A stretch of 64,000 nt of DNA from Octopus vulgaris. Taxonomy: Eukaryota. Position 1 is the first letter of the stretch; every line of letters starts with the position of its first letter. The notes under the pieces were generated by a model, which saw only the letters and a program-made list of their open reading frames with translations, ran no database searches and had not been told where the DNA came from. The stretch lies in NCBI GenBank assembly GCA_951406725.2, contig OX597840.1:6572001-6636000 (forward strand), given 5' to 3'. A program made the position numbers and the translations under genes. Of this stretch, positions 7,368 through 60,088 are shown one piece after another.

Positions 7368-7690
7368 TAATAAATAAAATAAAACATATGCATATATATA
7401 AACATATATGTACGTACCTACCTCTACATGTACATATACACGCATATATGAGTACAGGACACCAAAAAGGACGTCGAACACAATGAGAAACGAAAACATA
7501 GACACAAACCAAAGGAACTGGACATTTATTTAAAAACAGCAAAAAAATAGAATACAGGACAATTAACACAAAGAAAAAAACCCCTTCTTCAGTCGCTAAA
7601 GGTTTCATCTACTCTACGTTTCGAAGGATAAAAGCGAGACGTATCTTCGACAAGAAAACTTTCCTTCCTGCGAAAAGCAAATCAATTAAA
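7368..7690 (-). mobile_element. Interspersed repeat (Penelope/retrozyme-like end) carrying a permuted hammerhead
   Basis: Colinear homology with 22005-22290 (atatgtacgtaccta...caggacacca...ccccttc[t/a]tcag...tttcgaagg...tccttcctgcgaaa). Class assignment is inference. Confidence 0.6.
7581..7645 (-). ncRNA. Putative non-circularly permuted hammerhead ribozyme
   Basis: UACG-UC-UCGCU..CCUUC-GAAA-CGUA..AGCGA-CUGAAGA-AGGGG; stems I and III pair perfectly. Confidence 0.65.
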
Positions 7691-20281: not shown

Positions 20282-20873
20282 GATTGATTGATTGATTGAT
20301 TCCAGTTCCAGCCTGTGAGCTGTGGCCATGCTGGGGCACCGCCATTTGGTGTTGCTACTTGGTTTTACTTCATGGGGGCTTTCTAGCAACTGCTATTTGG
20401 TGCATGAGAGAGTTCGATGCAGCTGCCCTCATCTGCCCCTCCTGCCGTGAAGTTGGTTCATCTGGGACACCAGACAGGAAGAGATCCAGCTTCATTTTAA
20501 AGACATCTGTATCCACCCCATGCAGGTCTCTCAGGTTCTTCGGGAGGATATTGAAGAGCTGTGGGCCTCGGAAGCCCAGGCTATCACAGAATCTTGTCCT
20601 ACATCTTGATGGCAGGTTTGGAGTCCTAGGCACCACGCAGTGGCGCCCAGTTCTGGCATTTGTGTAACTCTCGATGCCAAAGTTCAGGACACTTCCCTCC
20701 AGGATCTTCCAGATGTATATTATGGCATATCTTTCCCGCCTACGCTCCAGGGAGTATAATTTTAATCTCTTGAGTCTTTCCCAGTAGCTTACATTCTGCA
20801 TAGAGGCTATCTTCTTTGTGTAGCTTCGTTGGATCGCCTCAAGTTCTGTGATCAACTTGACACTGGATGGTGA

Positions 20874-20876
<3 letters not shown>
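20282..20876 (-). mobile_element. CR1/L2-group LINE 3' end, 5'-truncated
   Basis: WSPS...LEAIQRSYTKKI...SYWERLKRLKLYSLERRRERY...GPQLFNILPKNLR...FKMKLDLFLSGVPDEP, then 3' UTR and (ATCA)n tail. Confidence 0.9.
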
Positions 20877-20930
<54 letters not shown>

Positions 20931-20932
<2 letters not shown>

Positions 20933-20990
20933 TCTCAAGATTAATCAGCTGAAATTGCGAGGATGATCCGGTTCTTGACTGAAGATTGAA
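20931..20990 (+). ncRNA. Putative non-circularly permuted hammerhead, second family
   Basis: AA-UC-UCAAGA..GAAA-UU..UCUUGA-CUGAAGA; same order and spacing as the 7581 and 22186 loci. Confidence 0.5.
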
Positions 20991-21066
20991 GGCTTCGAAT
21001 GACCCATCCATGTTTTTTGTAACGTCTTCTAAATGTTTTGCGTTCTTGTACCAGTTTGTATTTTTT

Positions 21067-21119
<53 letters not shown>

Positions 21120-21644: not shown

Positions 21645-21815
21645 TATGTATAAACAACAACGCGTGGACGTGGTACATACAAAGTATTAATAAGACGCTC
21701 GGGGAAGGAAAGAAAGGGTATTTTATGTTTCGAGCAGAGCTCTTCTTCAGAAACATGAGACAGAGGAAAATACAAAAGGAAAGGAAGGCACAGGCAAAAG
21801 TTGCCGACAATCAAC
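21645..21815 (-). mobile_element. Penelope-like terminal fragment with a minimal hammerhead (21721-21754)
   Basis: Minus strand UUU-CUGAAGA-A-GAGCucuGCUC-GAAA-CAUA-AAA; homologous to 49790-49936. Confidence 0.6.
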
Positions 21816-22004: not shown

Positions 22005-22290
22005 TAATAAATAAAATATATGCATACATACAAACATATATGTACGTACCTACATCTACGTGTATATATACATGCATATATAAATATATATACATGTACA
22101 GGACACCACAAATAGACGTAGAACTCAACGGACCATTTTTTAACAACGGAAAAACAGAGTACAAGACAACTACACAAGGAAAAATCCCCTTCATCAGCTG
22201 TCCCTAGTTCCACTCCAGTGTGTTTCGAAGGTGGGGACAGAACACGTCTCACCGAACTAATCCTTCCTGCGAAAGAATTAAATAAAATTC
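22005..22290 (-). mobile_element. Second copy of the permuted-hammerhead repeat family
   Basis: Colinear with 7368-7690. Confidence 0.6.
22186..22246 (-). ncRNA. Putative non-circularly permuted hammerhead ribozyme
   Basis: GUG-UU-CUGUCCC..CCUUC-GAAA-CAC..GGGACAG-CUGAUGA-AGGGG. Confidence 0.65.
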
Positions 22291-37246: not shown

Positions 37247-37376
37247 ACCAACCACATGGTTCCGGGTTCAGTCCCACTGCCTGGTACCTTGGGCAAGTGT
37301 CTTCTACTATAGCCTCGGGCCGACCAAAGCCTTGGGAGTGGATTTGGTAGACGGAAACTGAAAGAAACCCGTCGTA

Positions 37377-37410
<34 letters not shown>

Positions 37411-38105
37411 CGACGGGTTTCTTTCAGTTTCCGTCTACCAAATCCACTCCCAAGGCTTTGGTCGGCCGATGTGATGATGATGATATATATATATATAGGT
37501 GCAGGATTGGCTGTGTGGTAAGTAGCTTGCTTACCAACCACATGGTTCCAGGTTCAGTCCCACTGTGTGACACCTTGGGCAAGTGTCTTCTGCTATAGCC
37601 TCGGGCTGACCAAAGCCTTGTGAGTGAATTTGGTAGACGGAAACTGAAAGAAGCCCGTCGTATATATGTATATATATATATATAGGTGCAGGAGTGGCTG
37701 TGTGGTAAGTAGCTTGCTTACCAAACACATGGTTCTGGGTTCAGTCCCACTGTGTGACACCTTGGGCAAGTGTCTTCTACTATAGCCTCAGGCTCACCAA
37801 AGCCTTGTGAGTGGATTTGGTAGACGGAAACTGAAAGAAGCCTGTCGTATATATGTATATATATATATATATATGTGTGTGTGTATTTGTGCATCTGTGT
37901 TTGTCCCCCTAACATTGCTTGACAACCGATGCTGGTGTGTTTATGTCCCCCGTTACTTAGCGGTTCGGCAAAATAGACCGATAGAATAAATAGTGGGCTT
38001 ACAAAAGAATAAGTCCCGGGGTTGAGTTGCTCGATTAAAGGCGGTGCTCCAGCATGGCCGCAGTCAAATGACTGAAACAAGTAAAAGAGTAAAAGAGTAA
38101 AGAGT
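37247..38105 (+). mobile_element. SINE A array: three heads, an inverted arm and one tail
   Basis: Heads at ~37247, 37497 and 37684; inverted segment 37410-37467. Confidence 0.9.
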
Positions 38106-56626: not shown

Positions 56627-57287
56627 AATGACCTTGAACCCACAAGAGTAAGCAAGAGAGACAGACAGGCAGAAACAAGGAAAATGCCACTTGTATTTGA
56701 ACACTATACAAATATTCTTTTAATTTTTCCAAAATTTAATTGTTTTCCTTACTTACAGTTGAATAAGTCTCAATGACTGAAAATGGTACTGAAATGTTTT
56801 TTATAAACATTGGCGTTAGGAAGGGCATCCAGCCGTAGAAACACTGCCAGATTTGACTGGGCCTGATGAAGCCTTCTGGCTTCACAGACCCCAGTAGAAC
56901 CGTCCAACCCATGCTAGCATGGAAAACGGACGCTAAATGATGATGATGATGATAATTTAGTATTTTCTATCTTGACTTTTTTTTCAAGCGATGGTGATGT
57001 TGGTGGGAGGGACAAACACAGACACACAAACATACACACACACATGCATATATAAATATATATATACATATATACAACGGGCTTCTTTCAGTTTCCGTCT
57101 AGCAAATCTACTCACAAGGCTTTGGTCGGCCAGAGGCTATAGTAGAAGACATTTGCCCAAGGTGCCACGCTGTGGGACTGAACCCGGAACCATGTGGTTG
57201 GTAAGCAAGGTACTTACCACACAGCCACTCCTACGCCTATGATTTTTTACCTTGATTTTTTTTTCTCTTTTTTTTTGGTTACTGTAG

Positions 57288-59865: not shown

Positions 59866-59924
59866 TTCTACTGAAGAGGAAAGAATCTTTTATGAGATAG
59901 TTCCGAAATTGATTCAATATAGAA
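59866..59924 (+). ncRNA. Type I hammerhead ribozyme
   Basis: UUCUA-CUGAAGA-GGAA(19 nt)UUCC-GAAA-UUGAuUCAA-UA-UAGAA; all three stems and the core intact. Confidence 0.8.
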
Positions 59925-60088
59925 ATAACAAACTTTTTTAAAAAATTCTCTCGGCCGGCTTCTCCGATTTCAGTTCTTAGTGTCTTTTTCTGTAGCGGGT
60001 AAATAATATGTAGAAATTGACGATTTAAAAGTCTGTTATCAGTATATTGGCATTGAAATAATTTTCTTTAGCCCTCATTTATAAGTTG

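What the first reader, a model, noticed from the sequence alone, without database searches (positions are those of the whole stretch)
20931..20990. Same permuted hammerhead layout in an apparently unrelated sequence
Seen on the plus strand: AA-U-C|UCAAGA-uuaaucagcu-GAAA-UU-(16 nt)-UCUUGA-CUGAAGA. Stem I is a perfect 6 bp in the same register. The distance from cleavage site to CUGA is 44 nt, against 45 and 43 at the other two loci, with no evident flanking similarity. Stem III is only 2 bp plus the core pair, possibly clipped by the adjacent (TA)n, and stem II is poor. Inference: three hits in 64 kb from two families suggest a high-copy class of ribozyme-bearing retroelements that standard hammerhead searches would miss.
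Basis: partly seen in the sequence, partly recalled or inferred. Interest (0 to 1): 0.78.

Follow-up and report, generated by a model that had tools for sequence, protein, structure and literature searches.

The report
Core-opened permuted hammerhead in octopus retroelements
This is a clipped, probably inactive copy of a jumping repeat whose thousands of fuller copies carry the parts of a hammerhead self-cutting RNA in a rearranged order, with one core helix completed by an upstream strand; the RNA is predicted to cut itself and likely is the ribozyme that Naiad retrotransposons were reported to lack.

Summary
The layout is real and not chance. 20931-21069 is a 5'-truncated copy, inside (TA)n, of a ~740-nt non-coding Penelope-like repeat unit (family A; 5,051 pattern hits, control 0). 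Fuller copies restore stem III. They also show why stem II looked poor: its partner strand lies upstream of the cut site, not after CUGANGA. The fold is thus a type-SGC hammerhead (Eckert 2023) opened inside the core, between A9 and G10.1, with a kink-turn-like bend in the stem III extension. All four helices covary across subfamilies and families; shuffled DNA gave 0 hits in 26.6 Mb. The same wiring ends 4 of 18 published Naiad consensi read; 3 nematode Naiads carry type CSG; one family sits in the 3' UTR of a restriction-endonuclease LINE. Copy 5' ends pile up just 3' of the predicted cut in families A (19/80 vs 4/61) and B (14/63 vs 2/49), but not in N (2/30 vs 2/28): indirect evidence of cutting in vivo. 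Cleavage is untested, and family A's autonomous partner was not found. The scan found this wiring before on other DNA (e1-8666301, e1-8663162, e1-8807256 and others); I found no paper describing it.

The parts
20931..21069 (+). 5'-truncated family A copy (last 139 nt of a ~740-nt unit), ending at the family's fixed 3' end
20931..20934 (+). Remnant of block S: clipped stem III 3' arm (A, A, U16.1) and C17; predicted cut after 20934. The upstream stem II strand, extension strand and GA of the kink are missing here
20935..20940 (+). Stem I 3' arm (UCAAGA)
20946..20950 (+). Stem II 3' arm (CAGCU; family majority CAGCC, so C11.1 is changed to U)
20951..20958 (+). GAAA core and stem III 5' arm (UUGC)
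20959..20972 (+). Kink-turn-like bulged strand (variable 3-nt bulge, then invariant GAU) and 3' arm of the extension helix
   Evidence: k-turn consensus from established knowledge
20973..20985 (+). Stem I 5' arm (UCUUGA) and CUGAAGA core; A9 is the last nucleotide of the motif
20876..20929 (.). (TA)n target microsatellite, 5' side
21070..21114 (.). (TA)n target microsatellite, 3' side
22191..22266 (-). Family B copy with all four helices, including upstream stem II GAAGG/CCUUC
7586..7667 (-). Family C copy with all four helices (stem II GAAGGA/UCCUUC; loop-E-like GAA/AGUA in the stem III extension)

Best explanation
The stretch is a truncated, probably inactive genomic copy of a non-coding Penelope-like repeat whose intact copies carry the hammerhead core parts in a rearranged order, predicted to fold into a self-cleaving ribozyme whose stem II is completed by an upstream strand. 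Order shown by sequence and covariation: stem II 5' strand (starting at G10.1), extension 5' strand, GA, stem III 3' arm with UH, cut, stem I 3' arm, 1-5 nt linker, stem II 3' arm, GAAA, stem III 5' arm, bulge and GA, extension 3' strand, stem I 5' arm, CUGANGA. This is the cyclic order of types SGC/CSG/GCS, opened between A9 and G10.1. Inferred: the kink-turn (loop-E motif or A-bulge in other families) bends the stem III extension back so that its far end joins the far ends of stems I and II, doing the job of the usual loop I-loop II contact. Inferred: transcripts of tandem units are cut once per unit; a Penelope-like reverse transcriptase supplied in trans starts about 135 nt downstream of the cut; on a cut RNA it runs off at the cut, giving short copies, and on uncut multimers or circles it continues, giving tandem arrays. 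The partner is likely a Naiad; that link is shown for family N only.
For: Family A subfamilies, 26 distinct copies selected on the S side and CUGANGA only: 94.9% of 602 cells paired, 7 pairs changed on both sides, 0/500 shuffles as high for pairing and covariation score, slid registers 15-49%; an A-U pair is inserted on both arms of stem III in 4 copies. Upstream stem II is 98.5% paired; the downstream alternative is 83.7% and not above its shuffles (44/500), and is absent in subfamily A3 and families I and J. Thirteen family representatives: cognate arms average 5.0, 4.8 and 4.8 Watson-Crick pairs of 5 for stems II, III and I against 2.1, 2.0 and 1.5 for non-cognate arms; G10.1-C11.1 and U16.1-A15.1 in 13 of 13; H17 never G (these copies were chosen by the descriptor). 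Blind test: of 30 loci picked only by GAAA..CUGANGA, 15 have matching stems I and III upstream, 12 of them with upstream stem II and 6 with downstream; swapped halves 31 of 690. Null: 0 hits in 26.6 Mb shuffled, 0 in reversed loci. Element type: 24 of 30 loci have tandem or inverted extra pieces and 8 a repeated tail. Naiad ORF ends are followed on the sense strand by the N-type motif in 22 of 50 loci. Published Naiad consensi read by eye: same wiring in Obim, Ovul, Chem-3 and Bfor (Bfor stem I only 2 bp). 5' ends pile up in the 13 nt just 3' of the predicted cut: family A 19 of 80 against 4 of 61 in the next 13 nt (p 0.006, bin chosen after looking); family B, whose stretch is not TA-like, 14 of 63 against 2 of 49 (p 0.007, bin fixed beforehand).
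Against: No cleavage was observed; only assembled contigs were available. Family N shows no pile-up (2 of 30 against 2 of 28). No reverse-transcriptase ORF was found linked to family A. A weaker downstream complement of 4 or more pairs exists in 9 of 13 representatives and is unexplained. Covariation counts copies, not events; further pair types did not exceed shuffles (405/500), and pair 12-62 is unpaired in 13 of 26. Ten of 18 Naiad 3' ends read show no such motif, and Esco has a poor stem II. In a Poseidon element the canonical hammerhead cut only with protein, was not needed for insertion in vitro, and left no RNA-seq ends (PMC11167929, passages). The window copy begins 4 nt 5' of the cut, so it is not an exact run-off product.
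Confidence: 0.75

Rival explanations
1. A plain type-SGC hammerhead: stem II is formed by the strand after CUGANGA with 1-5 nt bulged out; the upstream strand is an on/off competitor.
For: A downstream complement of 4-5 pairs, G-U included, exists in 9 of 13 representatives. All 583 published type-SGC examples keep block C whole (PMC10085705, sections read). One-base insertions between A9 and G10.1 are tolerated (recalled; one search found no paper).
Against: The offset varies from 1 to 5 nt, A3, I and J have no such complement, pairing is 83.7% and not above shuffles, while the upstream strand is Watson-Crick perfect in unrelated sequences (GGCUG/CAGCC, GAAGG/CCUUC, GACACC/GGUGUC, GAGCA/UGCUC, GGCCCC/GGGGCC).
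Confidence: 0.12
2. A conserved but non-catalytic RNA structure, such as a reverse-transcriptase binding or packaging signal derived from a hammerhead; the 5'-end pile-up would come from polymerase stalling or microhomology.
For: No cleavage shown here; no pile-up in family N; family A's stretch is AT-rich and borders (TA)n; a Poseidon hammerhead was dispensable in vitro.
Against: Core bases stay fixed while every stem changes, and H17 is C, A or U but never G in 13 of 13. The pile-up lies at the 5' edge of the cut product, after reverse transcriptase would already have unwound the fold (inference), and repeats in family B.
Confidence: 0.08
3. Chance match or artefact of a repeat-rich sequence.
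For: The window copy alone has only 2 pairs plus the core pair in stem III and no stem II; pseudoknot-free folding gives z-scores of -0.85 to 0.88.
Against: 0 of 60 window shuffles reach 3 hits; 0 hits in 26.6 Mb; 5,051 against 0 and 29,338 against 2,246 genome-wide; compensatory changes.
Confidence: 0.02

Closest known systems
Type-SGC hammerhead (HRIMA-1 and SGC variant), Eckert et al. 2023, PMC10085705 (seen: abstract, parts 2-3 of 8, sections 14, 15, first part of 18, word searches of text and supplement)
   Same: S-G-C order, intact core, short linker from stem I to stem II, and a fourth helix joining the strand 5' of stem I to the strand 3' of the stem II 5' arm.
   Different: There block C is taken to be indivisible; here A9 ends the motif and G10.1 starts it, and the fourth helix continues into stem III through a kink. 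Described from metatranscriptome contigs; the supplement search found 0 occurrences of octopus, metazoa or nematod.
Type-CSG hammerhead (same paper; two natural sequences)
   Same: Same cyclic order. Naiad-1, -2 and -3 of Nippostrongylus each end in a fully paired CSG motif with different stem sequences (read by eye).
   Different: Opened after block G, core continuous; not the form at this locus.
Type I hammerheads in pLTRs of Penelope-like elements and non-LTR retrozymes (PMC4209133, search listing only; bioRxiv 10.64898/2026.07.22.740005, passages)
   Same: One ribozyme per tandem non-coding unit, near the 3' end of the element, sense strand.
   Different: Canonical C-G-S order without core pseudoknots; descriptors for it cannot match this motif.
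Naiad clade of Penelope-like elements, Craig et al. 2021, PMC8557442 (seen: passages; supplement parts 1, 8, 9, 14, 18, 24, 25, 27 of 59 and one search)
   Same: (TA)n target, tandem and inverted arrangement, tail; the paper reports no canonical hammerhead but 'HHR_core' and 'HHR_half_core' cases, including Naiad_Ovul, whose 3' end has this wiring.
   Different: Family A is non-autonomous, and no Naiad ORF was found attached to it; 10 of 18 Naiad ends read lack the motif.

Membership tests
Hammerhead ribozyme | Core CUGANGA, GAAA and UH (H not G) | tested here: met
   13 of 13 representatives (selected on these motifs); U16.1 and C17 in 48 of 48 long family A copies picked by their 3' part
Hammerhead ribozyme | Stems I, II and III in core register, with covariation | tested here: met
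   stem II covaries between families, not within family A; not met by the truncated window copy itself
Hammerhead ribozyme | A9 joined to G10.1 with at most 1-2 inserted bases | tested here: not met
   G10.1 lies about 66 nt upstream of CUGA
Hammerhead ribozyme | Site-specific self-cleavage after H17 | not testable with these tools
   indirect only: 5'-end pile-up in families A and B, not N
Type-SGC hammerhead | Blocks in the order S, G, C | tested here: met
Type-SGC hammerhead | Block C uninterrupted | tested here: not met
Type-SGC hammerhead | Fourth helix tying stems I and II | tested here: met
   extension helix 87.9% paired, 3 of 7 pairs changed on both sides
Penelope-like element | Tandem or inverted pLTR-type units, tail, fixed 3' end with 5' truncation | tested here: met
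   24 of 30 loci with extra tandem or inverted pieces, 8 with tail
Naiad clade | ORF with N-terminal GIY-YIG and reverse transcriptase attached to the element | tested here: inconclusive
   family N: ORF C-terminus followed by the motif in 22 of 50 loci; family A: none found
Naiad clade | (TA)n insertion preference | tested here: met
Kink-turn | 3-nt bulge followed by tandem G-A/A-G pairs between two helices | tested here: met
   invariant GGA and GAU with a variable 3-nt bulge in 26 of 26; same pattern in family N; consensus from established knowledge
Kink-turn | Kinked geometry and L7Ae-family binding | not testable with these tools
   needs structure or binding assay

The most novel reading that the evidence does not exclude
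A natural hammerhead permutation beyond the six proposed by Eckert et al.: the chain opens inside the catalytic core (A9/G10.1) and a kink-turn closes a cage of two junctions. It cuts in vivo, belongs to a reverse-order hammerhead lineage that Naiad retrotransposons carry from comb jellies to cephalopods (type CSG in nematodes), and has also been taken up by a restriction-endonuclease LINE.
Probability: 0.6. Interest if true: 0.85.

Novelty: new variant of a known kind. Interest (0 to 1): 0.76.

Why it matters
It would overturn the assumption that the CUGANGA block of the hammerhead cannot be interrupted, and move non-circular permutations from environmental RNAs of unknown host into tens of thousands of animal genomic copies. 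It makes an open point directly testable: Naiads were reported to thrive without canonical hammerheads, which was read as a sign that these ribozymes may merely parasitise Penelope-like elements (PMC8557442). The 5'-end pile-up is a rare genomic trace of ribozyme cutting in this class. A natural kink-turn inside a ribozyme also suggests protein control of cleavage.

Tried and rejected
Canonical type I reading at this locus: the hairpin after CUGAAGA is followed by GAAU, with no matching S block in register (sequence; the canonical descriptor does not list the locus). The GAAA..CUGAUGA hits at 56838 and 60370 are variants of a SINE tail and fail the descriptor. Rfam: whole window swamped by microsatellite-miRNA matches (150 of 503 rows shown, no hammerhead among them); no hammerhead on an intact copy. 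Pseudoknot-free folding was uninformative. Sequencing runs: no RNA holder listed on record; 4 of 21 runs laid, all contigs, which cannot show ends; they gave the lead to subfamily A3. Search for family A's autonomous partner failed. The pattern was miscounted and found nothing. The ungapped 5'-end measure was replaced by a gapped one. Of the 100 places listed I used 90, skipping an inverted pair at C1:111.92 Mb and the last 8; of the 100, the first 70. Paper searches found no description of this wiring; the library lacks most subscription journals, and bioRxiv supplements and Eckert's alignment files were not read row by row, so an earlier mention is not excluded.

Full report
Observation. The motif is in the sequence as written. 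A descriptor for the order cut-site block (S), GAAA block (G), CUGANGA block (C) finds three loci in the window, at distances 44, 43 and 45, against at most 0, 0 and 1 in 60 shuffles for three settings. The copy runs from 20931 to 21069 between two (TA)n tracts.

The element. The window lies in a 2.8-Gb genome; a motif from the published octopus Naiad consensus has 216 exact hits in it against 0 for the control, so it is octopus-like. The 140-nt stretch has 1,856 first-look candidates; the 39 best other copies are 94-97% identical. Copies share a fixed 3' end and vary at the 5' end. The full unit is about 740 nt; of 30 loci, 24 have extra tandem or inverted pieces (two loci overlap one array) and 8 repeat the unit's start as a tail. 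These are the hallmarks of Penelope-like elements described in PMC8557442 (passages). No reverse-transcriptase ORF was found attached, so family A is non-autonomous.

Stem III and its extension. GC(A/G)AUC is intact in 24 of 29 other copies, giving a 5-bp stem III. Beyond it lie an internal loop and a 7-bp extension that leads straight into stem I. The loop has invariant GGA on one strand and a variable 3-nt bulge plus invariant GAU on the other in 26 of 26 aligned copies, which is the kink-turn consensus (established knowledge). Families C, D and F have GAA/AGUA, a loop-E-like motif (recalled label), and family I a four-A bulge.

Stem II. After CUGAAGA the pairing is weak and needs a 5-nt insertion. 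Reading the Naiad_Obim and Naiad_Ovul 3' ends showed a perfect partner upstream of the cut, and the same holds in every family examined. In family A the upstream helix is 98.5% paired; the downstream one is 83.7%, no better than its shuffles, and absent in A3, I and J. The motif therefore starts at G10.1 and ends at A9. Eckert et al. (PMC10085705) defined six permutations on the assumption that block C cannot be interrupted, and validated SGC and CSG in vitro. The present form has the same cyclic order as SGC, with their fourth helix equal to this extension, but is opened inside the core. A weaker downstream complement persists in 9 of 13 representatives and is unexplained.

Covariation and controls. 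A pattern fixing only the S side and CUGANGA gives 5,051 hits against 0. In 26 distinct copies (26 of 30 loci after removing duplicates) 94.9% of cells pair, 7 pairs change on both sides (18/500 shuffles as high), cells with such changes and the covariation score exceed all 500 shuffles, and further pair types do not (405/500). The copies are related, so these numbers are not probabilities. A generic GAAA..CUGANGA pattern gives 29,338 hits against 2,246. Of its first 30 loci, 15 have matching stems I and III upstream, 12 with upstream and 6 with downstream stem II; many failures are 5'-truncated copies; swapped halves pass in 31 of 690. The four-helix descriptor finds 0 hits in 26.6 Mb of shuffled DNA and 0 in reversed loci, against 183 forward in 1.37 Mb of loci enriched by selection; in the 600-kb even sample it found one hit, a new family I.

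Links to autonomous elements. In this genome, the C-terminus of the Naiad ORF is followed on the same strand by the N-type motif in 13 of the 30 best and 9 of 20 hand-picked weaker loci, fixing the strand. Of 54 published Naiad consensi I read 18 3' ends by eye: this wiring in Obim, Ovul, Chem-3 and Bfor (stem I only 2 bp); stems I, III and extension but poor stem II in Esco; complete type CSG in Nbra-1, -2 and -3; nothing recognisable in Omin, Adux, Skow-1, Chem-1, Chem-2, Dst-2, Dst-3, Ebur, Tama and Mley, several of which lack a full 3' end. Craig et al. flagged 'HHR_core' and 'HHR_half_core' cases that fitted no descriptor. Family I lies in the 3' UTR of a non-LTR element whose ORF ends in a zinc knuckle and a PD..ExK-like endonuclease (3 of 15 loci reach the ORF); HERO-like is my recalled label, and Pfam gives only zf-RVT at E 0.03, below its cut-off.

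A genomic trace of cutting. If transcripts are cut, reverse transcription starting about 135 nt downstream would run off at the cut. In 90 family A copies picked by their 3' part only, 19 of 80 at risk end within the 13 nt 3' of the cut (1.8% per nt), 4 of 61 in the next 13 nt, and 13 over the following 117 nt (about 0.2% per nt). The bin was chosen after seeing the data and the stretch is AT-rich. In family B, with the bin fixed beforehand and a pyrimidine-rich stretch, the counts are 14 of 63 and 2 of 49 among 70 copies; Fisher p is 0.006 and 0.007. Family N, 30 older copies selected to include the GAAA block, shows none (2 of 30, 2 of 28). This supports but does not show cleavage in vivo. 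Internal initiation of reverse transcription is documented for a Poseidon element, where the hammerhead needed protein and was dispensable in vitro (PMC11167929, abstract and passages).

This copy. It starts 4 nt 5' of the cut, lacks the upstream stem II and extension strands, keeps two pairs plus the core pair of stem III, and has C11.1 changed to U. It is probably inactive (inference).

Novelty. Searches found no paper describing this wiring or permuted hammerheads in animal retroelements; coverage limits apply. The scan's earlier notes (seen after my reading was written in notes 45 and 55) report the same wiring on other DNA; they are AI notes and not independent support. Verdict: works like a hammerhead; not a member of type SGC as defined; a new variant of a known kind, interest 0.76.

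Noticed in passing
Craig et al. File S5: Naiad-1, -2, -3_Nbra 3' ends: All three nematode consensi end in a fully paired type-CSG hammerhead with a fourth helix and different stem sequences; Eckert et al. had two natural CSG sequences.
   Followed up: partly
L233:1400-1580 (-), L273, L278, L269: Family I (1,709 candidates, 97-98% identical) carries the core-opened motif about 100 nt before the 3' end of a restriction-endonuclease non-LTR element, outside the Penelope class; copies include the whole uncut motif.
   Followed up: partly
Craig et al. File S5: Naiad-1_Chem, -2_Chem, -1_Skow 3' ends: A different shared motif (GGGUG ... GCUYAC ... CACCUGA) sits near the 3' end in a cnidarian and a hemichordate; possibly another structured RNA.
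   Followed up: no
Craig et al. File S5: Naiad-2_Dst, -3_Dst: CUGACGA preceded by CAACCCC, with a complementary UC-GGGGUUG several hundred nt upstream; could be a long-range version.
   Followed up: no
window 21727-21750 (-): Canonical-order CUGAAGA, A, 4-bp hairpin, GAAAC end of another repeat; stems I and III not established.
   Followed up: no
window 59871-59925 (+): Canonical type I hammerhead candidate (stem I 5, II 4, III 3 pairs).
   Followed up: no
window 20300-20875 (-): The (TA)n tract and the family A copy border a LINE reverse-transcriptase C-terminal fragment on the opposite strand (translation; family label not tested).
   Followed up: no
window 20986-21001 (+): A hairpin directly after CUGAAGA, followed by GAAU, resembles a canonical stem II-GAAA relic; family B has a hairpin in the same place. 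Possibly a vestige or a switch.
   Followed up: partly
window 37348-37437: Near-perfect inverted repeat around (TA)n, formed by two repeat ends.
   Followed up: no
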